Below are positions 14,206-51,652 of a stretch of 64,000 nt of DNA, piece by piece. The notes under the pieces were generated by a model that was not told where the DNA came from, did not search any database, and saw only the letters and a program-made list of their open reading frames with translations. Made by a program: the position numbers and the translations under genes. Every line of letters begins with the position of its first letter. The stretch's first letter is position 1. Source of the stretch: Squalus acanthias (taxonomy: Eukaryota); contig CM059432.1 in the NCBI GenBank assembly GCA_030390025.1, forward strand, positions 3,844,001 through 3,908,000. Direction: 5' to 3'.

Positions 14206-14395
14206 GTGGAGCGGTTGCTAAACCCGAGACACTACACTAGTAGTGACTCCCACCCTCCCACCTCCTCTAACCTTTAGGGGTAGAGGGAATTTAAAAGGTA
14301 GGTTCGATTTTATATTTTGTTTTCAGGGACTTAACTCCTGGACCTAAGATAAATAAGTTTAAATTTTAGTAATAAAGTAACATAAGGGTTAAGTC

Positions 14396-15340: not shown

Positions 15341-15387
15341 TATGGCAGGGGAATGGGAACCTATGTAGCGAAACAGGGGGAAGTAAT

Positions 15388-18324
15388 ATGCAGTCAGAAA
15401 CAAATGTTAGAAGGGTGAGAAACAATAGGGGAAGGCCGAGTAAACAAAGGCAAGAAACACAAAGGGCCATACTAAATCATAAGTCTAAAAGGACAAAGGA
15501 TGTTAATAAAACAAGCCTAAAGGCTCTGTGTCTTAATGCAAGGAGTATCCGTAATAAGGTGGATGAATTGACTGTGCAAATAGATGTTAACGGATACGAT
15601 GTGATTGGGATTACAGAGACGTGGCTCCAGAACAATCAAGGCTGGGAACTGAACATCCAGGGGTATTCAACATTCAGAAAGGATAGAATAAAAGGAAAAG
15701 GGGGTGGGGTAGCATTGCTGGTTAAAGAGGAGATTAATGCAATAGCTAGGAAGGACATCAGCTTGGAGGATGTGGAATCAATATGGGTTGAGCTGCAGAA
15801 CACCAAAGGGCAGAAAACGTTAGTGGGAGTTGTGTACAGACCTCCAAACAGCAGTAGTGAGGTGGGGGAGGGTATGAAACAGGAAATCAGAGGAGCATGC
15901 AAAAAAGGCACGGCAGTTATCATGGGTGACTTTAATATGCATATAGATTGGGCTACTCAAACTGGAAGCAATACGGTGGAGGAGGATTTCCTGGAGTGTT
16001 TAAGGGATGGTTTCCTAAACCAATATGTTGAGGAACCAACTCGAGGGGAGGCCATCCTGGACTGGGTGTTGTGTAATGAGGAGGGACTAATCAGCAATCT
16101 TGTGGTACGAGGCCCCCTGGGGAAGTGTGACCATAGTATGGTGGAGTTCTACATTAGGATGGAGAAGGAAACAGTTAAGTCAGAGACCATGGTCCAGAAC
16201 TTAAATAAGGGCAACTTTGAGGTTATAAGGCGTGAATTGGCGAGGTTAAATTGGCAAGCGATATTTAAGGGGCTATCAGTGGAAGGGCAATGGCAGACAT
16301 TTAGAGATCGCATGGATGAACTACAACAATTGTACATCCCGGTCTGGCGTAAAAATAAAAAAGGGAAGGTGGCTCAACCATGGCTAACAAGGGAAATCAG
16401 GGATAGTATTAAAACCAAGGAAGTTGCATACAAATTGGCCAGAAGTAGCAGCAAACCCGGGGACTGGGAGAACTTCAAAACTCAGCAGAGGAGGACGAAG
16501 GGTTTGATTAGGGCAGGGAAAATAAAATATGAAAGGAAGCTTGCAGAGAACATTAAAATGGACTGCAAAAGCTTCTATAAATATGTAAAAAGAAAGAGGT
16601 TAGTAAAAACAAACGTAGGTCCCCTGCAGTCGGAAACAGGGGAAGTCGTAATGGGGAACAAGGAAATGGCAGATCAATTGAACAAGTACTTTGGTTCGGT
16701 GTTTACTGTGGAAGACACACACAACCTGCCGGAAATAAAAGGGGTCAGAGGATCTGGTAAGAGGGAGGAGCTGAGGGAAATCCTTATTAGTCGGGAAAAG
16801 GTATTGGGGAAATTGATGGGACTGAAGGCTGAAAAATCCCCGGGGCCTGATGGTCTGCATCCCAGAGTACTTAAGGAGGTGGCCTTGGAAATAGTGGATG
16901 CATTGACGATCATTTTCCAACATTCCTTAGACTCTGGATCAGTTCCGATGGAGTGGAGGGTGGCCAATGTAACCCCTCTTTTTAAAAAAGGAGGGAGGGA
17001 GAAAGCAGGGAATTATAGACCGGTCAGCCTGACATCGGTCGTGGGTAAAATTATGGAAGCAATTATTAAAGATGTCATAACAGACCATTTGGAAAGTGGC
17101 GACATGATAGGTCCAAGTCAGCATGGATTTGTGAAAGGGAAATCATGCTTGACAAATCTTCTGGAATTTTTTGAGGATGTTTCCAATAGGGTGGACAGGG
17201 GGGAACCAGTAGATGTGGTGTATTTGGACTTTCAGAAGGCCTTCGACAAGGTCCCACACAAGAGATTGGTGAGCAAAGTTAAAGCACATGGGATTGGGGG
17301 TAATGTGTTGACGTGGATTGAGAACTGGTTGGCACACAGGAAACAAAGAGTAGGAGTAAATGGGTACTTTTCAGAATGGCAGGCAGTGACCAGCGGAGTA
17401 CCGCAGGGTTCGGTGCTGGGACCCCAGCTGTTTACATTATATATTAATGATTTGGACGAAGGGATTAAATGTAATATCTCCAAATTTGCGGATGACACTA
17501 AATTGGGAGGCAGTGTGAACAATGAGGAGGATGCTAGGAGGCTACAGAGTGACTTGGACAGGTTGGGTGAATGGGCAAATGTATGGCAGATGAAGTACAA
17601 TGTGGATAAATGTGAGGTTATCCACTTTGGTGGTAAAAATAGAGAGGCGGACTATTACCTGAATGGTGGCAGATTAGGGAAAGGGGACGTGCAACGAGAC
17701 CTGGGCGTCATGGTACATCAGTCACTGAAGGTGGGAATGCAAGTGCAGCAGGCAGTCAAGAAAGCAAACGGAATGATGGCCTTCATAGCAAGGGGATTTG
17801 AGTACAGGAGTAGGGAGGTGATGCTACAGTTGTACAGGGCCTTGGTGAGGCCACACCTGGAGTATTGTGCGCAGTTTTGGTCTCCTAACTTAAGGAAGGA
17901 CATTCTTGCTATTGAGGGAGTGCAGCGAAGGTTCACTAGATTGATTCCTGGGATGGCCGGACTGACATATCAAGAAAGATTGGGTCAACTGAACTTGTAT
18001 CCTCTGGAGTTCAGAAGAATGAGGGGGGATCTTATAGAGACATTTAAAATCCTGACTGGTTTAGACAAATTAGATGCAGGCAGAATGTTCCCAATGGTAG
18101 GGAAAACTAGAACCAGGGGTCACAGTCTAAGGATTAAGGGGAAGCCATTTAGGACTGAGCTGAGGAGGAACTTCTTCACCCAGAGAGTGGTGAATCTATG
18201 GAATTCTCTTCCACAGAAGGTTGTTGAGGCCAGTTCGCTAAATATATTCAAAAGGGAGTTAGATATAACACTCACAACTAAGGGGATCAAGGGGTATGGC
18301 GAGAAAGCAGGAATGGGGTACTGA
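15388..18324 (+). CDS. CR1 ORF2p: APE endonuclease plus reverse transcriptase (frame open from at least 15331)
   Basis: NARS, ITETW, GDFN, CDH (APE); YRPVSLTS, LDFQKAFD, GVPQGSVLGP, KFADD (RT); 978 aa with no stops. Confidence 0.95.
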   Translation: MQSETNVRRVRNNRGRPSKQRQETQRAILNHKSKRTKDVNKTSLKALCLNARSIRNKVDELTVQIDVNGYDVIGITETWLQNNQGWELNIQGYSTFRKDRIKGKGGGVALLVKEEINAIARKDISLEDVESIWVELQNTKGQKTLVGVVYRPPNSSSEVGEGMKQEIRGACKKGTAVIMGDFNMHIDWATQTGSNTVEEDFLECLRDGFLNQYVEEPTRGEAILDWVLCNEEGLISNLVVRGPLGKCDHSMVEFYIRMEKETVKSETMVQNLNKGNFEVIRRELARLNWQAIFKGLSVEGQWQTFRDRMDELQQLYIPVWRKNKKGKVAQPWLTREIRDSIKTKEVAYKLARSSSKPGDWENFKTQQRRTKGLIRAGKIKYERKLAENIKMDCKSFYKYVKRKRLVKTNVGPLQSETGEVVMGNKEMADQLNKYFGSVFTVEDTHNLPEIKGVRGSGKREELREILISREKVLGKLMGLKAEKSPGPDGLHPRVLKEVALEIVDALTIIFQHSLDSGSVPMEWRVANVTPLFKKGGREKAGNYRPVSLTSVVGKIMEAIIKDVITDHLESGDMIGPSQHGFVKGKSCLTNLLEFFEDVSNRVDRGEPVDVVYLDFQKAFDKVPHKRLVSKVKAHGIGGNVLTWIENWLAHRKQRVGVNGYFSEWQAVTSGVPQGSVLGPQLFTLYINDLDEGIKCNISKFADDTKLGGSVNNEEDARRLQSDLDRLGEWANVWQMKYNVDKCEVIHFGGKNREADYYLNGGRLGKGDVQRDLGVMVHQSLKVGMQVQQAVKKANGMMAFIARGFEYRSREVMLQLYRALVRPHLEYCAQFWSPNLRKDILAIEGVQRRFTRLIPGMAGLTYQERLGQLNLYPLEFRRMRGDLIETFKILTGLDKLDAGRMFPMVGKTRTRGHSLRIKGKPFRTELRRNFFTQRVVNLWNSLPQKVVEASSLNIFKRELDITLTTKGIKGYGEKAGMGY

Positions 18325-21299: not shown

Positions 21300-21880
21300 C
21301 CATCGACCCCCTTCCAACCCCCATCGACCCCTGTCCAATCCCATCCACCAGCAACGACTCCCATTCACCCACACCCACCCCCCCATCCACTCCCGTTCTC
21401 CCCATCCACTGCTTCTCGACCCTCCATCCACTGCCCCTCGACTCCCATCCACTGACCCTTGACCCCCATCCACTGACCCTCAACCCCATCCACTGCCCCT
21501 CGACCCCCATCCACTGACCCTCGACCCCCATCCACTGACCCTCGACCCCCATCCACTGCCCCTCGACCCCCATCCACTGACCCTCGCCCCCCATCCACTG
21601 CCCCTCGACCCCCCATCCACTGCCCCTCGACCCCCCATACACTGACCCTTGCCCCCCATCCACTTCCTCTCGCCCCCCATCCACTGCCCCTCGACCACCA
21701 TCCACTGCCCCTCGACCCCCCATCCACTGCCCCTCGACCCCCCATCCACTGCCCCTCGACCCCCCATCCACTGCCCCTCGCCCCCCATCCACTGCCCCTC
21801 GACCCCCATCCACTGACCCTTGACCCCCATCCACTGCCCCTCGCCCCCCATCCACTGCCCCTCGCCCCCCATCCACTGCC
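21300..21880. repeat. Minisatellite with unit of about 20-22 bp (CCATCCACTGCCCCTCGACCC)
   Basis: Direct tandem copies with variable C-run length and no unique spacers. Confidence 0.95.
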
Positions 21881-21910
21881 GCTCACCATCCATCTTTTAG
21901 CCTTTTTCTT

Positions 21911-24749: not shown

Positions 24750-25280
24750 ATCTCCCCTCGGTTTCCCCTTCTACCCCCCTCGGTTTCCCCCTCTCCCCCC
24801 CTCGGTTTCCTCCTCTCTCTCGGTTTCCCCCCCCGCTCTCTCTCTCTCTCGGTTTCCCCCCCCGCTCTCTCTCTCTCTCGGTTCCCCCCCCCCGCTCTCT
24901 CTCTCTCTCTCGGTTCCCCCCCCCCGCTCTCTCTCTCTCTCGGTTCCCCCCCCCCGCTCTCTCTCTCTCTCTCTCTTGGTTCCCCCCCCCCCCCCGCTCT
25001 CTCTCTCTCTCTCTCGGTTTCACCCCCCCCGCTCTCTCTCTCTCTCGGTTCCCCCCCCCGCTCTCTCTCTCTCTCTCGGTTTCCCCCCCCCCCCGCTCTC
25101 TCTCTCTCTCTCTCGGTTTCCCCCCCCCCGCTCTCTCTCTCTCTCGGTTCCCCCCCCCCCCCCGCTCTCTCTCTCTCTCGGTTTCCCCCCTCGCTCTCTC
25201 TCTCTCTCTCGGTTTGCCCCCACGCTCTCTCTCTCTCTCTCTCTCGTTTCCCCCCACGCTCTCTCTCTCTCTCTCGGTTT

Positions 25281-25313
<33 letters not shown>

Positions 25314-25656
25314 CGGTTTGCCCCCACGCTCTCTCTCTCTCTCGGTTCCCCCCTCTCTCTCTCTCTCTCGGTTCCCCCCCCCGCTCTCTCTCTCTCTCTC
25401 TCTCTCTCTCGGTTTCCCCCCCCGCTCTCTCTCTCTCTCTCGGTTTCCCCCCCCCGCTCTCTCTCTCTCGGTTTCCCCCCACGCTCTCTCTCTCTCTCTC
25501 TCGGTTTCCCCCCCCCGCTCTCTCTCTCTCTCTCGGTTTCCCCCCACGCTCTCTCTCTCTCTCTCTCTCTCCCTCTCGGTTTCCCCCCCCGCTCTCTCTC
25601 TCTCTCTCTCTCGGTTTCCCCCCACGCTCTCTCTCTCTCTCTCGGTTCCCCCCCCC

Positions 25657-25690
<34 letters not shown>

Positions 25691-25692
25691 TT

Positions 25693-25725
<33 letters not shown>

Positions 25726-26115
25726 CGGTTTGCCCCCACGCTCTCTCTCTCTCTCGGTTCCCCCCTCTCTCTCTCTCTCTCGGTTCCCCCCCCGCTCTCT
25801 CTCTCTCTCTCTCGGTTTCCCCCCACGCTCTCTCTCTCTCTCTCGGTTCCCCCCTCTCTCTCTCTCTCTCAGTTCCCCCCACGCTCTCTCTCTCTCTCTC
25901 TCTCTCGGTTTCTCCCGCTCTCTCTCTCTCTCTCGGTTCCCCCCCCCCCACTCTCTCTCTCTCTCTCGGTTCCCCCCTCTCTCTCTCTCGGTTTCCCCCC
26001 ACGCTCTCTCTCTCTCTCTCTCTCGGTTTCTCCCGCTCTCTCTCGCTCTCTCGGTTCCCCCCCCCCACTCTCTCTCTCTCTCTCGGTTCCCCCCTCTCTC
26101 TCTCGGTTTCCCCCC

Positions 26116-26154
<39 letters not shown>

Positions 26155-26288
26155 TTCCCCCCCGCTCTCTCTCTCTCTCTCGGTTTCCCCCACGCTCTCT
26201 CTCTCTCTCTCTCTCGGTTCCCCCCTCTCTCTCTCTCTCGGTTTCCCTCCACGCTCTCTCTCTCTCTCTCTCTCTCGGTTCCCCCCCC

Positions 26289-26326
<38 letters not shown>

Positions 26327-27061
26327 TCCCCCCCCCGCTCTCTCTCTCTCGGTTTCCCCCCACGCTCTCTCTCTCTCTCTCTCGGTTCCCCCCCCCGCTC
26401 TCTCTCTCTCTCTCGGTTTCCCCCCACGCTCTCTCTCTCTCTCTCTCGGTTCCCCCCTCTCTCTCTCTCTCTCGGTTGCCCCCCCCGCTCTCTCTCTCTC
26501 TCTCTCGGTTTTCCCCCACGCTCTCTCTCTCTCTCGGTTCCCCCTCCGCTCTCTCTCTCTCTCAGTTCCCCCCACGCTCTCTCTCTCTCTCTCGGTTTCT
26601 CCCGCTCTCTCTCTCTCTCTCTCGGTTACCCCCCCACTCTCTCTCTCTCTCGGTTCCCCCCTCTCTCTCTCTCTCTCTCGGTTTCCCCCCACGCTCTCTC
26701 TCTCTCTCTCTCTCTCTCTCGGTTTCCCCCCCGCTCTCTCTCTCTCTCTCTCTCTCTCGGTTTCCCCCCCGCTCTCTCTCTCTCTCTCGGTTGCCCCCCA
26801 CGCTCTCTCTCTCTCTCTCTCGGTTCCCCCCTCTCTCTCTCTCTCGGTTTCCCTCCACGCTCTCTCTCTCTCTCTCTCTCTCTCTCGGTTCCCCCCTCTC
26901 TCTCTCTCTCTCTCTCTCTCGGTTTCCCCCCACGCTCTCTCTCTCTCTCTCTCTCTCTCGGTTTCCCCCCCCGCTCTCTCTCTCTCTCTCGGTTTCCCCC
27001 CACGCTCTCTCTCTCTCTCTCTCGGTTCCCCCCCCTCTCTCTCTCTCTCGGTTTCCCTCCA

Positions 27062-27099
<38 letters not shown>

Positions 27100-27224
27100 T
27101 TCCCCCCCCCGCTCTCTCTCTCTGTCTCGGTTTCCCCCACGCTCTCTCTCTCTCTCTCGGTTTCCCCCCCCGCTCTCTCTCTCTCCGGTTTCCCCCCCGT
27201 TCTCTCTCTCTCTCTTGGTTTCCC

Positions 27225-27256
<32 letters not shown>

Positions 27257-27457
27257 GTTTCCCCCCTCTCTCTCTCTCTCTTGGTTTCCCCCCTCTCTCT
27301 CTCGGTTTCCCCCCACTCTCTCTCTCTGTTTCCCCCCTCTCTCTCTGTCTGTTTCCCTCCTCTCTCTTTCTCTCTGTTTCCCCCCTCTCTCTCTCTCTCT
27401 CTCACTTGGTTTCCCCCTCTCTTTCTCTCTGTTTCCCCCCTCTCTCTCTCTCTGTTT

Positions 27458-27488
<31 letters not shown>

Positions 27489-27742
27489 CGGTTCCCCCCC
27501 CCCCCCCGCTCTCTCTCTCTCTCTCTCTCGGTTTCCCCCCCGCTCTCTCTCTCTCTCTCTTGGTTTCCCCCCTCTCTCTCTCTCTGTTTCCCTCCTCTCT
27601 CTCTCTCTCTGTTTCCCCCCTCTCTCTCTCTCTCTGTTTCCCCCCTCTCTCTCTCTCTCTGTTTCCCCCCTCTCTCTCTCTCTCTCTTGGTTTCCCCCTC
27701 TCTCTCTCTCTCTGTTTCCCTCCTCTCTCTTTCTCTCTGTTT

Positions 27743-27785
<43 letters not shown>

Positions 27786-27975
27786 CCCCCCCCCCCCTCT
27801 CTCTCTCTGTTTCCCCGGCTCTCTCTCTCTCTCTCTCGCTCGGTTTTCCCCCTCTCTCTCTCTCTGTTTCCCCTCTCTCTCTCAGTTACCCCCCTCTCTC
27901 TCTCTCTGTTCCCCCCCCTCTCTCTCTCTCTCTCTCTCTCGGTTTCCCCCCTCCTCTCTCTCTCTCTCTCGGTTT

Positions 27976-28018
<43 letters not shown>

Positions 28019-28050
28019 TTCCCCCCTCCTCTCTCTCTCTCTCTCGGTTT

Positions 28051-28082
<32 letters not shown>

Positions 28083-28313
28083 TTTCCCCCCCACTCTCTC
28101 TCTCTCTCTGTTTCCCCCCCCCCTCTCTCTCTCTCTGTTTCCCCCTCTCTCTCTCTCTGTTTCCCCCCTCTCTCTCTTTCGGTTCACCCCCGCCCCCCCC
28201 CCGCTCTCTCTCTCGGTTTCCCCCCCGCTCTCTCTCTCTCTCTCTCTCTCTCGGTTTCCCCCGCGCTCTCTCTCTCGGTTTCCCCCCCGCTCTCTCTCTC
28301 TCAGTTTCTCCCC

Positions 28314-28350
<37 letters not shown>

Positions 28351-29405
28351 CCCATCCCGCTCTCTCTCTCTCGGTTCCCCCCCCTCTCTCGCTCTGTTTC
28401 CCCACCCCCCGCCCTCTCTCTCTCTGTTCCCCCCCTCTCTCTCTCTCGGTTCCCCCCCCCCCCACTCTCTCTCTCGGTTTCCCCCTCTCTCTCTCTCTCT
28501 CTCTCTGTTTCCCCCCCTCTCTCTCTCTCTCTCTCTCTCAGTTTCCCCCCCTCTCTCTCTCTGTTCCCCCCTCTCTCTCTCTCGGTTTCCCCCCCCCACT
28601 CTCTCTCTCGGTTTCCCCTCTCTCTCTCTCTCTCTCTCTGTTTCCCCCCCTCTCTCTCTCTCTCTCGGTTTCCCCCCCCACCCATCTCTCTCTCTCTGTT
28701 CCCCCCCTCTCTCTCTCTGTTCCCCCCTCTCGCTCTCTCTGTCCCCCCCTCTCGCTCTCTCTGTTCCCCCCCCTCACTCTCTCTGTTCCCCCCCCCCCCC
28801 CCGACTCTCTCTCTCGGTTTCCCCCCCTCTCTCTCTCTCTCTCGGTTTCCCCCCCCCCTCTCACTCTTGGTTTCCCCCCTCCCTCTCTCTCTCTCTGTTC
28901 CCCCCACCCCCTCTCTCTCTCTCCCCCCGCTCTCTCTCTCCCCCTCTCTCTCTCCCTCCCCTCTCTCTCTCTCTCTCTCTCTTCCCCCCCTCTCTCTCTC
29001 TCTCTCTCTCTTCCCCCCCTCTCTCTCTCTCTCCCCTACCTCTCTCTCTCCCCTCCCTCTCTCTCTCTCTCTCCCTCTCTCTCCCCCCTCCCTCTCTCCC
29101 TCTCTCTCCTCTCTCTCTCTCTCTCCCCCCTCTCTCTCTCACCCCCTCCCTCTCTCTCCCCCTCCCTCTCTCTCTCTCTCTCTCCCTCTCCCTCCTCCCT
29201 CTCTCCCCCTCCTCCCTCTCTCCCCCTCCCCTCCCTCTCTCCCTCTCCTCCCCCTCCCCTCCCCCCTCTTCCTCCCTTTCCCCCTCTCCCCCATCTAGCC
29301 CCCTTCCTTCCCCCTCCCCCTCCTTCCCCCTCCCCCCACCCCCCTCCTCCATCCCTTCCACCCTCCCTTTCCCCCCTTCCTCCCCCTGCCCCTCTCCTCC
29401 CCCCC
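24750..29405. repeat. About 4.65 kb polypyrimidine compound satellite [CGGTTT-Cn-G-(CT)n]
   Basis: Directly visible; the + strand is almost entirely C/T. Confidence 0.97.
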
Positions 29406-33384: not shown

Positions 33385-34190
33385 TTTCAAGTCCCACTCC
33401 AGAGACTTGAGCAAGTAGTCTAGGCTGACTCTCCCAGTGCAGTACTGAGGGAGCGCGGCACTGTCGGAGGGGCAGTACTGAGGGAGCGCCGCACTGTCGG
33501 AGGGGCAGTACTGAGGGAGCGCCGCACTGTCGGAGGGGCAGGACTGAGGGAGCGCCGCACTGTCGGAGGGGCAGGACTGAGGGAGCGCCGCACTGTCGGA
33601 GGGGCAGGACTGAGGGAGCGCCGCACTGTCGGAGGGGCAGTACTGAGGGAGCGCCGCACTGTCGGAGGGGCAGGACTGAGGGAGCGCCGCACTGTCGGAG
33701 GGGCAGGACTGAGGGAGCGCCGCACTGTCGAAGGGGCAGTACTGAGGGAGAACTGCACTGTCGGAGGGGCAGTACTGACGGAGCGCTGCACAGTCGGAGG
33801 GGCAGTACTGAGGGAGTACCGCACTGTCGGAGGGGCAGTACTGAGGGAGTGCTGCACTGTTGGAGGGGCCATTCTTCGGATGAGACGCTAAACTGCCCTT
33901 TCAGGTGGATGTAAAACATCCCACGGGCACTGTTTCGAAGAAGAGCAGGGGGAGTTCTCTCCAACGTCCTGGCCAATTTTTATCCCTCAATCAACATCAC
34001 TAAATAAACAGGTTATCAGGTCATTATCATGTTACTGTATGTGGGAGCTTGCTGTGCACAGCAAGGCTGCCACGTTTCCTACATTACAGCAGTGACTACA
34101 CTTCAAATAAGTACTTCATTGGCTGTGAAGCGCTTTGGGACGTCCTGAGGTTGTGAAAGGTGCTATAGAAATGCAAGTCTTTCTTTCTTT
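33385..34190 (+). mobile_element. DeuSINE with an internal tandem expansion
   Basis: B-box remnant, Deu core and tail flank the array. Confidence 0.8.
33440..33870 (+). repeat. 33-bp tandem array (about 13 units) derived from the SINE body
   Basis: Unit CAGTACTGAGGGAGCGCCGCACTGTCGGAGGGG; the segment is single-copy in the other SINEs. Confidence 0.92.
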
Positions 34191-37760: not shown

Positions 37761-39832
37761 CAATGTGGCAGCCAAGATGTAATATAATTTACGAACAGTT
37801 TAAATACGAACAAGGAGAGTCACTGATTAGCATTGGTATTATTTTGACTCCGCCAAGTGCAAAGAATTCAAAGGGGCGATAAATGCCTGACATAATCGTA
37901 GCTTCTTTCAGAGTTTATTTCTTTTGTGCCTCTCTGAATATGCTTCATGTAACAAGGCGTATCTGTGTTATAAAAGTGACACACTGGGAATTCGTATTAA
38001 AGCGTCACAGACTGCAGCAGATGGGTTTGATTAAAGAAACTCCCTGTCTGTACGAATAAATTAAATCTACTTCACGGAGTTTAATAGCAGATGCCTTGTG
38101 ACAGGTCAGTTTACGTACAAGCTCACAGCTAAATTGATGCATTCTCTAGTCAAATGATGTTAAATCTCACAACACAGCACTTCAGCGACGCACAATACAA
38201 AACAACAATCAGCGCAGGACCTGAGTTTCCAACGTAGGGGGTCATTTGCCGAGTTTGTGCTGCCGTCAGGGAACTGCGTACGGTTTTCTACCAGTTTTCT
38301 TTAGAAAATCATGCAGGGTGCGTGCCTCAGTTTTCAATGTGAATTGTAAGCAGGTGAGGCTCCGCACTAGCAGGGCAACGTCGGAAAATGATCCATTATA
38401 TAATCCCTGAATTTACCGTGAACAACTTAATCATATTGCCATCAGCTGTGGAGGCACTCTCGCCTCTGAGTCAGAAGGTTGTGGGTTCGAGTCCCACTCC
38501 AGAGACTTGGACACATAAAGCTAGGCTGACACTGCAGTGCAGTGCTGAGGGAGTGCGGCACTGTCGGAGGTGCCGTCTTTCGGATGAGGTGTTAAACCGA
38601 GGCCCCGTCTGCTCTCTCAAGTGGACGTAAAAGGTCCCACGGGACTATTTTGATGAAGAGCAGGGGAGTTCTCGCTGGTGTCCTGGGCCAATGTTTATCC
38701 CTCAACCAACATCACTTTTAAAAAAAAACAGATTATCCGGTCATTATCACACTGCTGTTTGTGGGAGCTTGCTGTGCGCAAACTGCCTGCCGCGCTTCCG
38801 ACATTGCTACAGTGACTACACTTCAAAAAAAGTACTTCATTGGCTGTAAAGCGCTTTGGGACACTCTGAGGTCCTTTGGTTCCCTGCACAGCAAGCTCTG
38901 TACTTCAAATTAATTCATTGTATGTACAGCACTTTGAGATGTTTCTGAGAGTCGTGATCAGGAGCTGCATTAATCAAAGTCTTTTTCTTTGTTTTAGATC
39001 AAATAATGAGAAGAATTATTTAACGGTATACAGTAAATATTTTCCCATTATTTTCTGTCCCTCTGCGGGGACTCCAATTATACAGTTGAAGGGGAGGATG
39101 GTTCGATGCTAGTTGAATGCGGAGCAATTCTTATCCCAGACCAATTCCGAGCCGAAATAGAAGATGTTTCAGAAATAAAGAAGAAAGTCTTGCATTTCTC
39201 TAGCACCTTTCATGACCACTGGACATCCCAAAGCGCTTCACAGCCAATGAAGTACTTTTTGAAGTGTAGTCACTGTTGTAATGTAGGAAACGCGGCAGCC
39301 AATTTGCACACAGCAAGCTCCCACAAACAGCAATGTGATAATGACCAGATAATCTGTTTCAGTGATGTTGGTTGAGGGATAATTATTGGCCCCAGGAATA
39401 ACGCCCCTGCTCTTCTTCGATAATAGTGCCATAGAGTCTTTTACATCCACCTGAGGGAGCAGACAGGGGCCTCGGTCCAAGGTCACATCTGAAAGACGGC
39501 ACCGCTGACAGTGTAGCACTCCCTCAGCACTGCACTGGAGTGTCAGCCTAGATTTTTGTGCTCAAGTTACTTGGAGTGGGACTTGAACCCACAACCTTCT
39601 AACATCAGAGGCGAGAGTGCTACCCACTGAGCTACAGCATGTCTAGGATGTATTAACCTGATGCTTAATGTACTGAAGTTCCCTTTTCAAGTTGTTCTGT
39701 GCAAATGCCTGTTTTGTGTCCACTTACTGATTAGAATGGGCATAGAATTTTACCAGGACTGCAAGCAGAGCGTTGATTACGGTGACTGAACAAGGGATCC
39801 CATGATTATTACTGGGACAATCCATGATTCTG

Positions 39833-42255
39833 CCCTGCTGCACCTGCATGCTAACCTTCAGCGACTGGTGCACAAGGACATCCAGGTCTCGTTGCACTTC
39901 CCCTTTTCCCAATCTATTGCCGTTCAGATAATAATCTGTCTTCCTGTTTTTGCCACCGAAGTGGATAACCTCGCATTTATCCACATTACACTGCATTTGC
40001 CATGCATCTGCCCAATCACACAACCTGTCCAAATCATACTGGAGTTTCTCAGCATCCTCCTCACAGCACACACGCCCACCCAGCTTTGTGTCGTCTGCAA
40101 ACTTGGAGATATTACATCTAGTTCCCTCGTCTAGATCATTTATATATATTGTGAATAGCTGGGGTCCTAGCACCGATCCCTGCGGTACCCCACTAGTCAC
40201 TGCCTGCCACTCGGAAAAAGATCTGTTTATTCCAACTCTTTGCTTCCTGCCTGCCAACCAGTTCTCTATCCAAGACAGTACCTTACCCCCAATCCCATGT
40301 GCTTTAACTTTGCACGCTAATCTCTTATGCGGGACCTTATCGAAAGCCTTCTGAAAGTCCAAATACACCACATCCACTGGTTCTCCCTTATCTATTCTAC
40401 CAGTTACATCCTCAAAAAATTCCAGTAGATTAGTCAAGCATGATTTACCTTTTGTAAATCCATGTTGACTTTGTCCGATCCTGTCACTGTTTTCCAAGTG
40501 CTCTGCTATTACATCTTTTATAATGGACTCTAGCATTTTCCCCACTACCGATGTCAGGCTTACCCGTCTATAATTCCCTGTTTTCTCTCTCCCACCTTTT
40601 TCAAATAGTGGGGTTACATTAGCTACCCTCCAATCCATGGGAACTGTTCCAGAGTCTATAGAATTTTGGAAGATGACCAGCAATGCATCTACTATTTCTA
40701 GGGCCACTTCCTTAAGTACCCTAGGATGTAGATTATCAGGCCCTGGGGATTTATCGGCCTTCAATCCCGTCAATTTCCCTAACACTATTTCCCTACAAAT
40801 ACTGATTTCATTCAATTCCTCCCTCTCATTAGACCCTATGTTCCCCGACATCTCTGGGAGGTTATTTGTGTCCTCCTTTGTGAAGACAGAACCAAAGTAT
40901 GTATTTAATTGGTCTACCATTTCTTTATTCCCCATTATAAATTCCCCTGATTCTGACTGCAAGGGACCTATGCTTGACTTCATCAATCTTTTTCTCTTCA
41001 CATATCTATAGAAGCTTTTACAATCAGTTTTTATGTTCCCTGCAAGCTTACTCTCATAATCTATTTTCCCCCTCTTACTTAATCCCTTTGTCCTCCTTTG
41101 CTGAATCCTAAACTGCTCCCAATCCTCAGGTTTGCTGCTTTTTCTGGCCAAATTATATGTCCTCTCCTTGGATTTTATGCTATCCCTAATTTCCCTTGTT
41201 AGCCACGGTTGAGTCACCTTTTTTGTTTTATTTTTATGCCAAACAGGGATGAACAAATTCTGTAGTTCATCCATGCGATCTTTAAATGTTTGCCATTACC
41301 TATCCACCGTCAACCCTTTAAGTAACGTTCCCCAATCCATCCTAGCCAACTCGTGCCTCATACCATCATAGTTTCCTTTATTTAAATTCAGGACCCTAGT
41401 CTCTGAGTCAACTACTTCACTCTCCATCTTAATGAAGAATTCTATCATATTATGATCACTCCTCCCCAAGGGGCCTCGCACAACAAGATTGCTAATTAAT
41501 CCTTTCTCATTACATAATACCCAGTCTAAGATGGCCTGATCTCTAGTTGGTTCATCGACATATTGGTCCAGGAAACCATCCCGTATACACTCTAGGAATT
41601 CCTCCTCCACAGTATTGTTACTAATTTGGTTAGCCCAATCTATATGTAGATTAAAGTCACCCATGATAACTGCTGTGCCCTTATTGCACGCGTCTCTAAT
41701 TTCCCGTTTAATGCCATCCCCAACCTAAGCATTACTGTTTGTGGGTCTGTATACACCCTCCACTAACGTTTTCTGCCCTTTGGTATTTCTCAGCTCTGCC
41801 CATACAGATTCCACATCATCAGAGCTAATATCCTTCCTTACTATTGTGTTAATCTCCTCTTTAACCAGCAATGCTACCCCACCTCCTTTTCCTTTTTTCC
41901 TGTCCTTCCTGAATATTGAATACCCCTGGATGTTGAATTCCCAATCATGCTCACCCTGGAGCCATGTCTCCGTAATCCCAATTATATCATATCCGTTTAC
42001 ATCTATTTGCACAGCTAATTCATCCACCTTATTACGAATGCTCCTCGCATTAAGACACAAAGCCTTCAGGCTAGATTTTTTAACACTCTTAGTCATTTTA
42101 GAATTATTATTTACTGTGGCCCTGTTTGATTTACATCCTTGATTTCTCTGCCTTCCACTTTTGCTTTTCTCCTTCCTGTCTTTTGTTTCTATCCTTGCTT
42201 CCCTTTCCTCTGTCTCCCTGCACAGGTTCTCAACCCCCTACCATTTTAGTTTAAA
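39833..42255 (-). pseudogene. CR1 ORF2 (APE-RT) pseudogene
   Basis: Closely similar to 15388-18324 but with in-frame stops and C-terminal loss. Confidence 0.9.
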
Positions 42256-43196
42256 CCCTCCCCAACAGCACTAGCAAACACTCCCCCTAGGACATCGGTC
42301 CCGGTCCCGCCCAGGTGCAAACCGTCCAGTTTGTATTGGTCCCACCTCCCCCAGAACCAGTTCCAATGTCCCAGGAATTTGAATCCCTCCCCCTTACACC
42401 ATTCCTCTAGCCACGTATTCAGCTGAAATATCCTTCTATTTCTACTCTGACTAGCACGTGGCACTGGTAGCAATCCTGGGATTACTACCTTTGAGGTCCT
42501 ATTTTTTAATTTACCTCCTAACTCCCTATATTCAGCTTTTAGGACCTCATCCCGTTTTTTACCTATATCATTGGTACCTATATGCACCACAACAACTGGC
42601 TGTTCACCCTCCCCCTCCAGAATGCCCTGCAGCCGCCCCGAGACATCCTTGACCCTTGCACCAGGGAGGCAACATACCATCCTGGAGTCTCGTTTGCGGC
42701 CGCAGAAACGCCGATCTATTCCCCTTACAATAGAATCCCCTCTCACTATAGCTCTCCTGCTCTTTTTCCTCCCATCCTGTGCAGCAGGACCACCCATGGT
42801 GCCAGGAAGTTGGCTACTGCTGCCTTCCCCCGATAATCCATCTCCGTCAACAATATCCAAAGTGGTATATCTGTTTGAAAGGGGGATGGCCACAGGGGAC
42901 CCCTGCACTACCTGCCTGCGCCTACTACTCTGCCTGGTGGTCACCCATTCCCTTCCTGCCTGTGCAGCCTTTACCTGCAGTGTGACCAACTCCCTAAACG
43001 TGCTATCCATGATGTCCTCAGCATCACGAATGCTCCAGTATGTATCCATTCGCAGCTCCAGCGCCGCAATGCAATCTGTCAGTAGCTGCAGCTGGATACA
43101 CTTCCCACACACATGGCCGTCAGGGACACAGGAAGTGTCCCTGATTTCCCACATAGTGCAGGAGGAGCATGCCACGGGGCCGAGCTGTGCTGCCAT
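42246..43196 (-). CDS. CR1 ORF1p (zinc finger/leucine zipper plus SGNH esterase)
   Basis: 316 aa, colinear with 14396-15340; GDSIVRG, HIGTND and DGLH. Confidence 0.88.
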   Translation of the reverse strand: MAAQLGPVACSSCTMWEIRDTSCVPDGHVCGKCIQLQLLTDCIAALELRMDTYWSIRDAEDIMDSTFRELVTLQVKAAQAGREWVTTRQSSRRRQVVQGSPVAIPLSNRYTTLDIVDGDGLSGEGSSSQLPGTMGGPAAQDGRKKSRRAIVRGDSIVRGIDRRFCGRKRDSRMVCCLPGARVKDVSGRLQGILEGEGEQPVVVVHIGTNDIGKKRDEVLKAEYRELGGKLKNRTSKVVIPGLLPVPRASQSRNRRIFQLNTWLEEWCKGEGFKFLGHWNWFWGRWDQYKLDGLHLGGTGTDVLGGVFASAVGEGLN

Positions 43197-44436
43197 GACT
43201 TACCCTTTAATTAATTCAAATTAAATTAAATCAAATCAATACCACTAATTACACTATAATTAAATGATATACTCAAGGGCCCTTGTTTACTAGCACTCCC
43301 CGCTACACAACAGAGACCCTAGAAACTATAAACCACAAAAATTAAGTTTGGAAAAAAGCAAGAGAGAGAGAAATACTCACCAACCAATCACTTACCTGCT
43401 TTCTGGTGACGTTACATTTCGATTACTTTTTATTTCTTGCTGCTGCCGAGTCTTGGCCGCTCTCTCTCTGCTCGCTCTTTAACTCCTCGGTCTCCGCTCT
43501 CAGTCTTCACCCAGGACCGCTCTCGCTGCTGCTGCCGGTGAGTCTGGGCCGCTCTCTCTCTCCCCGCTCTTTAACTCCTCGGTCTCTGCGCTCAGTCTCC
43601 ACCCAGGGCCGCTCTCGCTCTCTCTTAATCCAATCTTTCGTTCTCTCTCTTCATTTCTCTTTCTGTACATGATTTGACTCTAATTCACCTGACTTCCTTC
43701 TCCGTCGTTCCTCTGTTTCTTTCTCACTCCTGAAATCTCATTGGTTAAGGAGATAGACTGTCGGTCCCGTCGTTCACCGGGGTCCCAGATGCCCTGTTAT
43801 CGGCTCGCACTCCCAGCAAGTTACAGCGCAAGTAGATTTCGAGCTGAAGGCTGCAGGAAGTAGTCTAACTAACGAGGCATGTCGCGAGAGGCCCCACTCC
43901 AGCAAGATCTGGTCCAATTAGTGCGACTAGCTTGTAGCAACTGAATTATCAAATTCCATTTTCACGATGTGGTTTTCCCAGACTTATTTCCTGTGTTTGA
44001 GAGACTGAATCCTGTGACAGAAAGGTGCTAGCTGTGTGGCACTCTCTCCCACAAAAAGCAGCAGATGCTGGGGCTCAATTATTAATTTCAAATCTGCGAT
44101 CAATACATTTTTGCTCGACAAGGAGATGGACCCAAGGTGGGTGGATGGAGTTCAGATGCAGATCAGCCATGATCTCATTGAATGGCGGAACAGGCTCGAG
44201 GGGCTGAATGACCTCCTCCTGCTCCGATATTCCTTTGATTCCATGCATTTTTCCATGAAAACTGAAAATCAGTAATCTTCACTAGAAGGAACACTCCTTT
44301 GGGTAGATACGAAGAGAGGCTAAAACAGTGCCATACCTTTTGATTAACAAAAGAAACAGGCAGGATTGGATCAACCTGAAACCTTTTAATTTTCCAAAGT
44401 CCCTTTGTAATGTAATTTTTCGATCTGAAAGCCACT

Positions 44437-46218: not shown

Positions 46219-47009
46219 TGTATCTTTTATATCTTTCTAAAAATTAATTCACGGGATGTGGGCATCACTGGCAAGGCCAGCATTTATTGCCCATCCCTAA
46301 TCGCCCTTGAGAAGGTGGTGGTGAGCCGCCACCTTGAACCGCTGCAGTCTGTGTGGTGAAGGTGCTCCCACAGTGCTGTTAGGGAGGGAGTTCCAGGATT
46401 TTGACCCAGCGACGATGAAGGAACGGCCGATATACTTCCAAGTCAGGATGGTGTGTGACTTGGAGGGGAACTTGGAGGTGGTGGTGTTCCCATGCACCTG
46501 CTGCCCTTGTCCTTCTAGGTGGAAGAGGTCGCGGGTTTGGGCGGTCTAATATAAATAAACAAAGCCGGTATCTTTTATATCCAATAACAATATCCAAAAG
46601 TTAACGACATGCAGCCACAGAGAAGCTGCTTGGACCAACTTTACACCTAGGGCTTTGAAGTTCTTATTTCACTAATCTTGGCAAAAAGATAGACATGAAC
46701 AATGAGTGGTCGAACATCAGGAGAAAGCACCAATTGTCCATGGTGCACTACCTCTTCAAAAGAGGATTAAGAACAGCTAGTGGAAAATGAGGGGAAGAAA
46801 AGCACAAATTAACTTGTTAAAGGATCTTTATGATGTACTTGTGAAGAAGTAATCTGCAGCTATAAAATATTCACTCCAGATCAGTACTATAAACAATTAC
46901 ATAGAAATTACAGCACAGAAACAGGCCATTCGGCACAATTGGTCCATGCTGGTGTTTATACTCCACACGAGCCTCCTCCCACCCTACTTTATCTCACCCT
47001 ATTTAAAAA

Positions 47010-47457
47010 AAAAGAAAGACTTGCATTTCTATAGCGCCTTTCACGACCTCAGGATGTCCCAAAGCGCTTTACAGCCAATGAAGTACTTTTTCAAGTGTAG
47101 TCACTGTTGTAATGTAGGAAACTCGGCAGCCAATTTGCGCACAGCAAGCTCCCACAAACAGCAATGTGACCGGATAATCTGTTTTTAGTGATGTTGATCA
47201 AGGGATAAATATTGGCCAAGACACCGGGGAGAACTCCCCTGCTCTTCTTCGAAATAGTGGCCGTGGGATCTTTTACGTCCACCTGAGAGAGCAGACGGGG
47301 CCTCGGTTTAACGTCTCATCCGAAAGATGGCACCTCCGACAGTGCAGCGCTCCCTCAGTACTGCACTGGAGTTTCAGCCTAGAATTTTGTGCTCAAGTCT
47401 CTGATGTGGGACTTGAACCCACAACCTTCTGACCCAGAGGCGAGAGTGCTACCCACT
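47010..47457 (-). mobile_element. DeuSINE whose tRNA head is interrupted by the Tx1-like element
   Basis: The SINE runs to ...gagagtgctacccact, then polyT. Confidence 0.85.
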
Positions 47458-49502
47458 TTTTTTTTAATATATTATTTATTGAACATTAAAAATATTTACA
47501 ACATCGTGATCATTCCATTGTATCATACAAATCCATTCTGCCGCTCTGCACAGCCATTCCTCCACCACATATTAACATCAAAACCTGAAGTTTAATTTGT
47601 CTCCCATAACATATATTAATCTATTGTACTTTAAAAATTGATCAGTAATCATGGCTCCGAATAAGGGAAGTGTGCCTGATAATCCCCCCATCATTTAATC
47701 TCCGGCCCTTCCCTCCTCTCATGCTCCTTCCCAACTTTTCGGGCAGCTGTTGCTTTCTCCTGCAGCCTCCGGCTCTTTTTCACCTCCTGTTTGAACCTTT
47801 CCTGCAGTTTCAGCCTCTTCCTTACATTAGGTTTGGGCCGAGGAGCTGCCCCTTCTCCCTCCTTCTGCCCCTCACTAACCTTTCCCTTTCCACACGATGC
47901 CACCCCACCCCCCACTTCCATGTCTCTGTCCCCCTCTGACTCCTCACTCTCGAGCTCTTCTGTAACCTCCCATCCCTGCTCCCCATCAGATACATAATCT
48001 CCCTTAGAGAGTCTTCCTGCTATCATGGTTTTTCCAACAGTGCCACTCCCTTTGGCTTCATCTCCACCATTGACCGTTGCTCTCCGTTTCTTCTCTCTCT
48101 GGGACAATGGCGCGTCTGCACCTATTTTGCTCCCTTCTGGCGTCTTTGTCTTCCCGCTCCCATCCTGTTGCCCCTTTAAGGCTCCTGCCTATTGCACCCT
48201 CTCCTTGTCTTGCCCCCTCCTGCTCCCCGAGATGTCCAAATCACCATCTTTCTTTGGAATACTTACACTTACCCCGCACCCCGCTCCCGCCTCCTCTCCC
48301 CCCGCGGACACCAGATTCTTTAGGGAGATCTGAGCCGTATTATGGCTCTACTCTGCCCTTGACCCGTGCTGCCCTCTACTGTCTTTGTCCTTTTCCACCG
48401 TACTTGGTGTGTTTTCCACCATCTTCATCCTGTTCTCTGCTCCGCAATTTTCTGCCTCTTCCTGCGCTCTTTTCTCCTTCCATTCACCAGCTGTGTCCTC
48501 TGCCTGCTCTGCTCCTCCAGCCGCTCCACTCACACCTCCTGCTCCTTCTCTCATCTCCTCGTCAGTCAAGGGGCTTCCTTCTGCCGCACACTCACAGCGG
48601 GTGGGGCCTTTGTGACACACCCCACAGCTCTCCGCCTTGCAGCTCCGAGCAATGTGTCCAGACTCGTCGCAGTTCTAACAGTACAAGTCTGGTCAGCTTC
48701 TTACAAGATGGTCGTGTCCAAAACAATAATAACAAACCTTCACCTGGTTACCATGCAGTACCCGGAAGTACTGTACTCCTTCCATTGTCTCGAATTTCAT
48801 GCTATACGGCAATGACTTCACCCCCTCTGGGAACCGCACCTTTACATAACGGGTTCCATCTGCTACCCGTGTTCCTGGATAGTATCTCCTCTTTATTGCC
48901 GAGCAAATTTTAATGTCCCATGACTCCAACTTTTTGATTAGCTCATCGTCCTCAATATAAACCGGCAGGTTTAAGAATGAGACCACCACCTCTTCAGAAT
49001 ATAGCAGAGATGCTTCCAAGAACTTATCTCCAACTTCAAACTCAGTAAAAGTCTTTCCACCTCCTCTCGGCCACTGACCGTCACCTCGAACCCAACATTC
49101 GGCTTTGGTCGGCAGGCAAAGCAGCTTCCCTCGCCGCAGTCCTCATGTACCGCCTGGATAATATCCCAAGCTCGTATCTCCTTATCCTCACACTGAACCA
49201 CCACCGTGTTTTCTTTTCCAAACCTCCTGGGGGCCCGACCCAAATCTTTGGGCTTTTTTTTCTCCCTTCCCCCAACATTTTCTCCCCTGATTAAACTCAT
49301 CCTGGGAACATTGTCCTCTTAGGGGCCGGGCACTCTGGGCCTTTCAGCAGCCATCTGGCTGCTATTTAAGGACCAAAAAGGCCCTAAAATCTGAAAAAAA
49401 AAACCACCACCAACTTTATACATACTCACTCCAACCCCCTGCAGTAATCAAGCATCCAGCAGCACCTGCTCACTCCTAGCCCCTCCCACCGAGAGAGAGC
49501 CG
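47458..49502 (-). mobile_element. ORF1-only Tx1/L1-like non-LTR element (half-L1-like)
   Basis: 5' UTR, decayed ORF1 (ATG 49354 to TGA 47691), about 230 bp 3' region, AATAAA, polyA, TSD CCCACT; no EN/RT sequence. Confidence 0.75.
47691..49354 (-). pseudogene. Tx1-type ORF1 (gag-like) with CCHC zinc knuckles
   Basis: VVVSFLNLPVYIEDDEL...DGTRYVKVRFP...SLPYSMKF...QVKVCYYCFGHDH and CDESGHIARSC, followed by a charged low-complexity tail; stops and frameshifts present. Confidence 0.8.
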
Positions 49503-49544
49503 CCCACTGATGCTAGCATATGTTTCTATTCCTTGCTCCCTCAG

Positions 49545-49643
49545 GTACTTGTCTCACATCAGTTGGTGAGCTTTATGAAAACCGAATGTTGAAGTCTCAC
49601 CACAGCAGTAAATGGTTACTGAGAAGTTTTCTGTACCAAGAGC
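49545..49643 (+). other. Candidate 99-bp host exon (unassigned)
   Basis: Pyrimidine tract plus CAG acceptor, GTAAGT donor, one open frame (phase 1-1). Confidence 0.25.
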
Positions 49644-50084
49644 GTAAGTACTGGCCGCTGACGGGCAGAGCGGGGGCAGAAGGAGGAGGAGATGGTTCAG
49701 AAACACCAGAAGGAGCCCCGCAACTCACAGGTGCTACTGAATCTACTGTCACAGCATCAGCTCCCTGTGCATGTCAAGTGCATGAGGAGGTCGGTATAGG
49801 CTGACCATGGAGAATGTGACTGACTGTGCTCTGCTACCTGGCCCATAAAAACCTGCCGAGAGTCAATAGCCTGCAATGCCGGATAGGTGGCAGTCAAGAT
49901 CACCACTGTCCTCATTTTTTATGCTGCAGAGAACCTCCAGCCACTAACGGGAGACATCACAAGAGTCAACTAGTCTCTTTGGTTGGTTTATGGACAACTT
50001 ATTTCCTGCACAGAACAACGGAATAAAAAGCAACTTGCATTTATACAGCACCTTCCACGACCTCAGGACATCCCAAAGCGCTTT

Positions 50085-50787
50085 ACAACAATAACTTGTA
50101 TTTATATAGCGCCTTTAACGTAGTAAAACATCCCAAGGTGCTGCACAGGAGTATTTTAAGACAAAAAAAATTTGACACCAAGCCACATAAGGATAAATTA
50201 GGGCAGGTGACCAAAAGCTTGGTCAAAGAGGTAGGTTTTAAGGAGTGTCTTAAAGGAGGAGAGAGAGGTAGCGAGGCGGAGAGGTTTAGGGAGGGAATTC
50301 CAGAGCTTAGGGCCCAGGCAACAGAAGGCACGGCCACCAATGGTTGAGCGATTATAATCAGGGATGCTCAAGAGGGCAGAATTAGAGGAGCGCAGATATC
50401 TCGGGGAGGTTGTGGGGCTGGAGGAGATTACAGAGATAGGGAGGGGCGAGGCCATGGAGGGATTTGAAAACAAGGATGAGAATTTTGAAATCGAGGCACT
50501 GCTTAACCGGGAGCCAATGTAGGTCAGCGAGCACAGGGGTGATGGGCGAACGGGACTTGGTGTGAGTTAGGACACGGGCAGCCGAGTTTTGGATGACCTC
50601 AAGTTTACGTAGGGTGGAATGTGGGAGGCCAGCCAGGAGTGTGTTGGAATAGTCAAGTCCAGAGGTAACAAAGGCATGGATGAGGGTTTCAGCAGCGGAT
50701 GAGCTGAGGCAAGGGCGGAGACAGGTGATGTTACGGAGGTGGAAGAAAGCGGTCTTTGTTATGCTGCGGATATGTGGTCGGAAGCTC
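50085..50787 (-). mobile_element. L2 3' fragment inserted in a DeuSINE (about 50030-51115)
   Basis: TAFFHLRNI...LDYSNTLLAGLP...LHWLPV motifs; TTTACA occurs at both junctions. Confidence 0.85.
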
Positions 50788-51652
50788 ATTTACAGCCAAT
50801 GAAGTACTTTTTGAAGTGTAGTCACTGTTGTAATGTGGGAAACGCGGCAGCCAGTTTGCGCACAGCAAGCTCCCACAAACAGCAATGGCCAGATAATTCA
50901 CTTTTATTTAGTGATGTTGGTCAAGGGATAAATATTAGCCAGGACAACAGGGAGAACTCCCCCTGCTCTTCTTCGAAATAGTGGCCATGGGATCTTTTAC
51001 GTCCACCTGAGAGAGCAGACGGGGCCTCGGTTTAACGTCTCATCCGAAAGACGGCATTTCAGTCCTGCACTGGGAGTGCCAGCCTAGATTTTGTGCTCAG
51101 GTCTCTGGAGTGTGACTGCCGCGCTTCCTACATTACAACAGTGACTCCACTTCAAAGGTACTTCATTGGCTGTAAAGCGCTTTGGGATGTCCTGAGGACA
51201 TGAAAGGCGCTGGAGAAATGCAAGTTCTTTCTTTTATATTAATGGGCGGCGATCATTGCCCGTTTTACACCCAGGCAACAAGTTAAAAACCTACCCCAAC
51301 ACCTGTCATTATTGCTCCCTCTCTTTGCTTGCTGGGGATCAGTCCTCTTGCACCAATAATGGGTTTGCATTGTTCTGTTACTGTACTCACCAACACTCGC
51401 AGGGCCTCAATGCTAAATCAACTTTTTTTATGTTGTCATTCAGACATTTTTTACGTAGAAACTTACAGCACAGGAACAGCTCATTTGGCCCAACTGGTCT
51501 GTGCCGGTGTTTATGCTCCACACCAGCCTCCTCCCACCCCTGTTCATCTTACGCTATCAGCATAACCCTCTATTCCTTTCTCCCTCATGTGTTTATCTAG
51601 CCTCCCCTTAAATGCATCTCTGCTATTCGCCTCAACCACCCCCTGTGGTAGC

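What the first reader, a model, noticed from the sequence alone, without database searches (positions are those of the whole stretch)
47458..49502. ORF1-only Tx1-like retroelement with intact ends (half-L1 architecture)
Seen: a 2.04-kb minus-strand unit with 5' UTR, zinc-knuckle ORF1, only about 230 bp of 3' sequence, AATAAA, polyA and a TSD. There is no room for EN/RT. LINE copies normally lose the 5' end, not the middle. A short frame in the 3' part (MITDQFLKYNRLIYVMGDKLNFRF*) might be a remnant of an ORF2 C-terminus. Established: HAL1 elements are ORF1-only L1 derivatives. Inference: a non-autonomous Tx1-clade family mobilised in trans, possibly uncatalogued in sharks.
Basis: partly seen in the sequence, partly recalled or inferred. 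Interest (0 to 1): 0.7.

Follow-up and report, generated by a model that had tools for sequence, protein, structure and literature searches.

The report
ORF1-only LINE family, shark-like genome
This is an old, broken copy of an abundant 2-kb jumping gene that carries only the RNA-binding first gene of a LINE and most likely borrowed its copying enzyme from a complete relative, a known way of life that I did not find described for this LINE lineage.

Summary
The anatomy is real: a 2.04-kb minus-strand unit with a ~140-nt leader, one LINE ORF1 (RRM fold plus CCHC knuckles), 233 nt of tail, AATAAA, A8 and a target duplication (6 bp exact, 13/16 imperfect). It sits in the tRNA-like head of a SINE. 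This copy's ORF1 is dead (one frameshift, five internal stops). The unit is a high-copy family. In three DNA runs of three coded organisms, summed contig depth over its whole length is 2,300-10,600 times the unique flank, and it drops at the 5' end. Tail/ORF1 depth is 0.5-1.4, with no 3' excess, which favours a 2-kb family over a one-off deletion. The ORF1-to-tail junction was not seen in a second copy, so this remains indirect. Relatives of this ORF1 sit directly before an EN-RT ORF2 of the L1 group. A 38-codon frame overlapping the ORF1 stop may be the fused ends of ORF2, but similarity tests were not significant. It works like HAL1 but is not HAL1. Tx1 membership is likely but could not be tested without an RT. 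No helper element was identified, and Repbase/Dfam could not be checked.

The parts
49509..49524 (-). Possible decayed 5' remnant of the host SINE head (left half of the target)
   Evidence: Weak: 3-8 of 16 ungapped matches to six SINE heads of the window; alignment
49493..49508 (-). Upstream copy of the target-site duplication (exact core AGTGGG 49508-49503; 13/16 over the full length)
49355..49492 (-). 5' leader, about 140 nt (5' end uncertain, 49502-49492)
   Evidence: Summed depth falls from 23,000-151,000 in bin 49424-49524 to 78-528 in bin 49525-49625 in X3, X4, X9
49010..49354 (-). ORF1, N-terminal piece (one internal stop; frame change near 49033-49004)
   Evidence: 41% identity over 68 aa to P0099, E 1.5e-12 in a local 155-protein set
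48588..49004 (-). ORF1 conserved core: RRM-fold domain (49004-48744), then CCHC knuckles and a cysteine cluster; two internal stops
   Evidence: the 50 top rows are almost all RRM-titled entries; best Z 7.4, rmsd 2.4, 74 aligned
47691..48587 (-). ORF1 low-complexity charged tail with a basic C-terminal helix and the ORF1 stop; two internal stops
   Evidence: a PKPNV-like motif lies near the C-terminus in 7 of 148 relatives (pattern chosen after seeing the data)
47578..47694 (-). 38-codon frame whose ATG overlaps the ORF1 stop; candidate in-frame fusion of the ORF2 start and ORF2 end, suspected junction near 47650
   Evidence: open in 2.6% of shuffles; GC 0.51 in codons 1-15 against 0.24 after; no significant similarity to known ORF2 ends
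47466..47577 (-). 3' UTR with AATAAA at 47480-47475
47458..47465 (-). A8 tail
47442..47457 (-). Downstream copy of the target duplication, equal to positions ~17-32 of the SINE head
47007..47457 (-). Host SINE (tRNA-like head, about 463 bp when complete), lacking its first ~16 nt here; SacSINE1-like by recall
   Evidence: 81-90% to long window copies; the missing 16 nt appear as the loose end at 47457 in all four runs

Best explanation
A decayed copy of an old, high-copy, non-autonomous non-LTR retroelement family that encodes only ORF1p. Shown: the 2-kb anatomy, the ORF1 type, the multi-copy status and the 5' boundary. Inferred steps: (1) an L1-group LINE, probably Tx1 clade, lost almost all of ORF2 by one internal deletion that left ORF1, the first ~15 and last ~23 ORF2 codons and the 3' UTR; (2) the derivative was transcribed from its own leader, probably by Pol II, and polyadenylated at AATAAA; (3) its ORF1p packaged the RNA, and ORF2p of a complete relative copied it in trans by target-primed reverse transcription; (4) this copy landed in the A-box region of a SINE head, leaving a ~16-bp duplication, before organisms A and D diverged, and has decayed since.
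For: Depth over all 20 bins of the unit is 2,333x, 10,561x and 4,517x the median unique flank in X3, X4, X9 (ORF1 bins). Tail/ORF1 depth is 0.50, 1.44, 1.12; my toy truncation model gives 1.2-3.4 for a 2-kb unit and 1.7-15.2 for a unit with 3.7 kb of ORF2. 19 listed contig pieces inside the unit differ from this copy by 10-16% (693 of 5138 letters), so these are many old paralogues. At 3 of the 4 internal stops of P0001, 85-100% of the depth in the three DNA runs reads another letter, so the stops are private decay (table 3; the other two stops are not among the 40 rows shown of 444). 2 of 2 ORF1-bearing loci with DNA (L001, L002) have ORF2 starting 1-2 nt after the ORF1 stop, with a short hydrophobic leader. 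L002 ORF2 has EN, RT and zf-RVT, nearest solved structure human L1 ORF2. A-tail, AATAAA and TSD fit TPRT. Sense-strand T runs of 4-10 argue against Pol III. ORF1-only LINEs are an established class (PMC5786205).
Against: No listed contig spans the junction region 47700-47600. The joint and loose-end tables were swamped by the SINE that I included in the laid stretch. The tool warns that summed depth is no copy number. Bins vary up to 8-fold, X3's ratio (0.5) lies below both models, and an autonomous family with half its copies full length predicts 1.7-1.8, close to X4's 1.44. The short frame shows no significant similarity to two ORF2 leaders or one ORF2 C-terminus (p 0.17, 0.16, 0.09; 96 of 733 windows score as well). 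No helper with this 3' end was found. The bases upstream of the TSD match the SINE head poorly.
Confidence: 0.62

Rival explanations
1. One-off deletion: the family is an autonomous ~6-kb LINE, and this copy alone lost ORF2 during or after insertion.
For: Both ORF1-bearing loci with DNA carry ORF2. The junction was never seen in a second copy, and equal depth on both sides of a junction does not prove contiguity. A mostly full-length family predicts a ratio of 1.7-1.8.
Against: No 3' excess in 3 of 3 DNA runs (0.50-1.44), although 5' truncation is the rule for LINE copies (established; PMC4494074, for Tx1-mobilised SINEs). The break spares all of ORF1 and leaves an open frame at the ORF2 position.
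Confidence: 0.2
2. ORF1-only family, but not born by internal deletion: the tail is a cryptic poly(A) site or a captured sequence unrelated to the parent's 3' end, and the 38-codon frame is chance.
For: No significant similarity of the short frame to ORF2 ends; no Pfam hit; best Atlas score 0.88, uninformative.
Against: The ATG overlaps the ORF1 stop where relatives start ORF2. The frame is open in only 2.6% of shuffles. A GC step lies near 47650.
Confidence: 0.13
3. Retrocopies of a domesticated, intronless host gene derived from a LINE ORF1 (ZCCHC3-like), not a mobile family in its own right.
For: Leader-ORF-3'UTR-AATAAA-poly(A) is also the anatomy of a processed pseudogene. A relative's ORF1 scores 0.93 to ZCCHC3-like clusters. 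X18 (RNA is a guess) holds contigs 96-99% identical to this copy.
Against: Depth thousands of times the flank and 21-99 contigs per variant site in ORF1 exceed a usual pseudogene family. The nearest relatives with DNA context are LINE ORF1s. No RBD_ZCCHC3 Pfam hit in 95 aligned proteins.
Confidence: 0.05

Closest known systems
HAL1 (half-L1) of mammals (PMC5753468, PMC3627910, PMC5786205: passages; Bao and Jurka 2010 not held)
   Same: ORF1 only, poly(A) tail, both ends kept, presumed use of ORF2p in trans.
   Different: ORF1 is RRM + CCHC (type I), not the Transposase_22 type of mammalian L1 (PMC5203782). Different host lineage and independent origin.
HeT-A (Jockey clade) and Ag-Sponge (CR1 clade) (PMC5786205, passages)
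   Same: ORF1-present, ORF2-less non-autonomous LINEs.
   Different: Other clades. This element is dispersed with a TSD, not telomeric, and its relatives carry an L1-group ORF2.
Tx1-clade LINEs: Keno, Kibi, Koshi, Tx1-Mar, Tx1L (PMC4494074 parts 1-3 of 5)
   Same: RRM/CCHC ORF1 consistent with Tx1; relatives in teleosts and molluscs; insertion into another repeat with a ~16-bp TSD, as for Tx1-Mar-mobilised SINEU-3.
   Different: No ORF2. Target preference not shown (one site). No sequence comparison with any named Tx1 family was possible.
SINEU of crocodilians (PMC4494074)
   Same: Non-autonomous element thought to use Tx1 machinery.
   Different: SINEU is snRNA-derived and non-coding; this unit keeps a full ORF1.

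Membership tests
ORF1-present non-autonomous LINE (Kojima 2018 class) | Encodes a LINE ORF1p and no EN/RT | tested here: met
ORF1-present non-autonomous LINE (Kojima 2018 class) | Retrotransposed as a unit (A-tail, TSD) | tested here: met
   the TSD is imperfect (13/16)
ORF1-present non-autonomous LINE (Kojima 2018 class) | The ORF2-less structure is shared by many copies | tested here: inconclusive
   Flat depth favours it; junction not seen in another copy
ORF1-present non-autonomous LINE (Kojima 2018 class) | 5' and 3' parts both derive from one autonomous LINE | not testable with these tools
   No genome held; short-frame tests not significant
HAL1 | ORF1p of the mammalian L1 type (Transposase_22) | tested here: not met
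   No such Pfam hit in P0001, P0002 or 95 aligned proteins; CCHC knuckles instead
Tx1 clade | RT groups with Tx1 in phylogeny (RTclass1) | not testable with these tools
   The element has no RT and no named Tx1 reference was available. The relative's RT is L1-group; its DQEKAF motif looks Tx1-like by recall only
Tx1 clade | Type I ORF1p (RRM + CCHC) | tested here: met
   PMC5203782 passages. Consistent with Tx1, not exclusive to it
Tx1 clade | Target preference (common, not universal) | tested here: inconclusive
   One site only; the SINE family covers 11.9% of the window, so a hit in it is unremarkable
SacSINE1 / Deu-SINE (host repeat) | Sequence match to the SacSINE1 consensus (tRNA head, Deu domain, L2 tail) | not testable with these tools
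   Recalled resemblance; completed length about 463 bp equals the longest whale-shark copies in PMC5499810 (passages)

The most novel reading that the evidence does not exclude
A Tx1-derived ORF1-only family, with thousands of copies shared by several cartilaginous fishes, that inherited its helper's target specificity and homes into the A-box of the genome's most abundant tRNA-derived SINE, splitting its Pol III promoter. It also kept an in-frame ORF2 stub behind ORF1. This would add a fourth clade to the three known sources of ORF1-only LINEs and be a protein-coding non-autonomous element that targets a SINE.
Probability: 0.15. Interest if true: 0.6.

Novelty: new member of a known kind. Interest (0 to 1): 0.38.

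Why it matters
ORF1-only LINEs test the idea that ORF1p is needed in cis while ORF2p can be borrowed. The review passage I read lists them from L1, Jockey and CR1 only. A high-copy family from the RRM/CCHC-ORF1 lineage would be an independent origin with an unrelated ORF1p, and thousands of old copies would allow a test of selection on ORF1 between master elements. The insertion shared by organisms A and D could serve as a phylogenetic marker. The principle itself is known.

Tried and rejected
No whole genome is held, so the decisive BLASTN could not be run. Self-BLAST and a 21-nt pattern found no second copy in the window. Read laying was laid on 47000-50000, including the SINE, whose depth swamped the joint, loose-end and piece tables (4 of 20 listed runs laid). 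No RNA holder is listed, which is no evidence on expression. Search for full ORF2 relatives with the L002 C-terminal piece: 0 of 530 candidates. Viral contigs: 0 relatives among 41 and 6 candidate stretches and 0 matches to a 27-nt tail pattern. Rfam: one chance-level tmRNA fragment. Short frame: no Pfam hit, Atlas best 0.88, shuffle tests not significant. Foldseek gave no match at E<=0.001, though the weak rows are mostly RRMs. Earlier notes by sequence and relatives: none. Rejected: an LTR-retrotransposon or retroviral gag (HIV nucleocapsid hits cover the knuckle only; no terminal repeat; relatives precede EN-RT). Rejected: the 6-bp TSD as evidence by itself (about 4% by chance). Rejected: one insertion in a SINE as evidence of target specificity. 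Literature searches listed no ORF1-only Tx1 family and no such shark element; the library lacks subscription journals and Repbase Reports. The supplement of PMC4494074 could not be read and may list Tx1 targets that bear on this.

Full report
Observation. The minus strand of 49508-47442 holds the unit described. ORF1 starts at ATG 49354 and ends at 47691. It changes frame between about 49033 and 49004 and has five internal stops, so this copy is dead. Behind the stop lie 233 nt with AATAAA at 47480-47475 and A8 at 47465-47458. ORF2 pieces of a relative find nothing in the unit by tblastn. There is no terminal repeat and no second copy in the window.

Ends and target. The sequence after the A-tail is a SINE, 81-90% identical to the long copies in the window; the family covers 11.9% of the window (25 hits). 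Here the SINE lacks its first ~16 nt, which other copies have and which appear as the loose end at 47457 in all four runs laid. The exact duplication is AGTGGG, a match that about 4% of control windows give. It extends to 13 of 16, a score reached by 7 of 3977 control windows (23 SINE-head windows dropped) and 21 of 5000 shuffles. I read this as an aged ~16-bp TSD, which moves the 5' end to about 49492. One X4 contig stops aligning at 49490 with 12 letters left over, which fits weakly. Against a clean insertion, the 16 nt upstream match SINE heads at only 3-8 of 16. The SINE looks like SacSINE1 by recall, and its completed length of about 463 bp equals the longest whale-shark copies in PMC5499810 (passages). 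The shark assignment is otherwise untested.

ORF1. Pfam gives zf-CCHC at E 0.0029. A profile search found 2,851 relatives at E<=0.001; the best are about 55% identical over 139 aa. Of 20 looked up, 4 carry an organism name: two teleosts and two molluscs. The model of the second piece is confident for residues 1-140, and residues 1-87 match RRM domains (best Z 7.4, rmsd 2.4, 74 aligned). That Z is middling, but the list is almost all RRMs; Foldseek had no match at E<=0.001. 79 of 95 aligned proteins hit zf-CCHC and none hits Transposase_22. This is the type I ORF1p that PMC5203782 (passages) calls consistent with Tx1 in non-mammalian animals. Both loci that give DNA context have ORF2 right behind ORF1: L001 and L002 with EN, RT and zf-RVT. 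The L002 RT is nearest to human L1 ORF2 (E 5e-22) against R2 (5e-8) among solved structures. The parent was therefore an L1-group LINE. Tx1 is likely but is defined by RT phylogeny, which I could not run.

Family or one-off. No genome is held. Twenty public runs from eight studies and six coded organisms hold part of the stretch, seven at half of its words or more; I laid four. In the three DNA runs, summed depth in the ORF1 bins is 2,333, 10,561 and 4,517 times the median unique flank, stays high through tail and leader, and collapses beyond 49524. The tool warns that this is no copy number, so I take it as 'very many copies'. Nineteen listed pieces inside the unit (of 32 listed; SINE, X18 and flank-bridging pieces left out) differ from this copy by 10-16%. 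At three of the four internal stops of P0001, 85-100% of the depth reads another letter. Tail/ORF1 depth is 0.50, 1.44 and 1.12. A toy model gives 1.2-3.4 for a 2-kb unit and 1.7-15.2 for a full LINE. This favours an ORF1-only family but does not prove it: bins vary up to 8-fold, a mostly full-length LINE family comes close, and no listed contig spans the junction because the SINE swamped those tables.

Age. Single-copy-depth contigs cover the 5' junction and unique flank in X3 (49468-49863, 5 differences in 396) and X9 (49407-49718, 37 in 313). The insertion thus predates the split of organisms A and D, and the orthologue distance (12%) is close to the paralogue distance (13.5%). The burst is old (inference).

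The short frame. It begins at 47694, overlapping the ORF1 stop, and has 38 codons. L001 and L002 start ORF2 1-2 nt after the ORF1 stop with an uncharged hydrophobic leader. The frame is open in 2.6% of shuffles, and GC falls from 0.51 to 0.24 near 47650. This suggests an in-frame fusion of the ORF2 start and end. Direct similarity is not significant: p 0.17 and 0.16 to the two leaders, and 0.09 to the one ORF2 C-terminus available, where 96 of 733 windows score as well. Pfam and the Atlas add nothing. It stays a hypothesis.

Mechanism. Most likely (0.62): internal deletion of ORF2 in an L1-group, probably Tx1, LINE, then Pol II transcription, ORF1p made in cis, ORF2p borrowed in trans, and TPRT into this SINE head. 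The anatomy and family status are shown; deletion, polymerase, helper and cis role are inferred. Rivals: one-off deletion 0.20, ORF1-only with a foreign tail 0.13, retrocopies of a domesticated gene 0.05. Earlier notes report young autonomous Tx1 families in this genome; they are unchecked and nothing ties them to this family.

Comparison and novelty. PMC5786205 (passages) names HeT-A, HAL1 and Ag-Sponge as ORF1-bearing non-autonomous LINEs and no Tx1 case. PMC5753468 and PMC3627910 (passages) describe HAL1; Bao and Jurka 2010 was not held. PMC4494074 (parts 1-3 of 5 and passages), PMC4640811 (passages) and PMC3747384 (passages) cover Tx1 targeting; PMC7140322 (passages) was read for ORF base composition. 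Ten searches listed no ORF1-only Tx1 or shark family, but Repbase and Dfam were out of reach. The scan's own unchecked notes list ORF1-only elements in several other genomes, so the architecture recurs. It works like HAL1 and is not a HAL1. Verdict: real, probably a family, new member of a known kind, interest 0.38.

Noticed in passing
window 14393-18324 (+): LINE with open ORF1 (315 aa, GDSL esterase) and open ORF2 (1002 aa, EN + RT); looks young and possibly complete; CR1/L2-type by recall. A broken relative lies at 39724-43199 (-).
   Followed up: partly
window 33439-33869: 33-bp minisatellite (13 copies, 94% match) whose unit comes from the SINE interior (47330-47364). A 33-nt step-back at that SINE position is seen in all four runs, so such arrays are widespread.
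   Followed up: no
window 24754-29400: 4.6-kb C/T-rich tandem array, 31-bp period, about 138 copies; it produces long spurious ORFs.
   Followed up: no
window 21400-21884: 21-bp tandem array, 23 copies, 90% match.
   Followed up: no
window 47007-47457: Contigs of three runs join position 47457 back to 47007-47011, suggesting head-to-tail SINE pairs (table 5).
   Followed up: no
window 47704-47981 and 48244-48480: Run X18 (organism E, RNA only guessed) has contigs 99.3% and 95.8% identical to this very copy; may be the orthologous locus, transcription not shown.
   Followed up: no
L002 and L004/L006 (G001): Two contigs of a bacterial genome bin are eukaryote-type LINEs (ORF1 + EN-RT), probably host contamination.
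   Followed up: partly
window 50085-50800: Another repeated element upstream, with several window copies and a tail like the SINE's; ORF 50382-50789 looks like a LINE RT C-terminus by recall.
   Followed up: no
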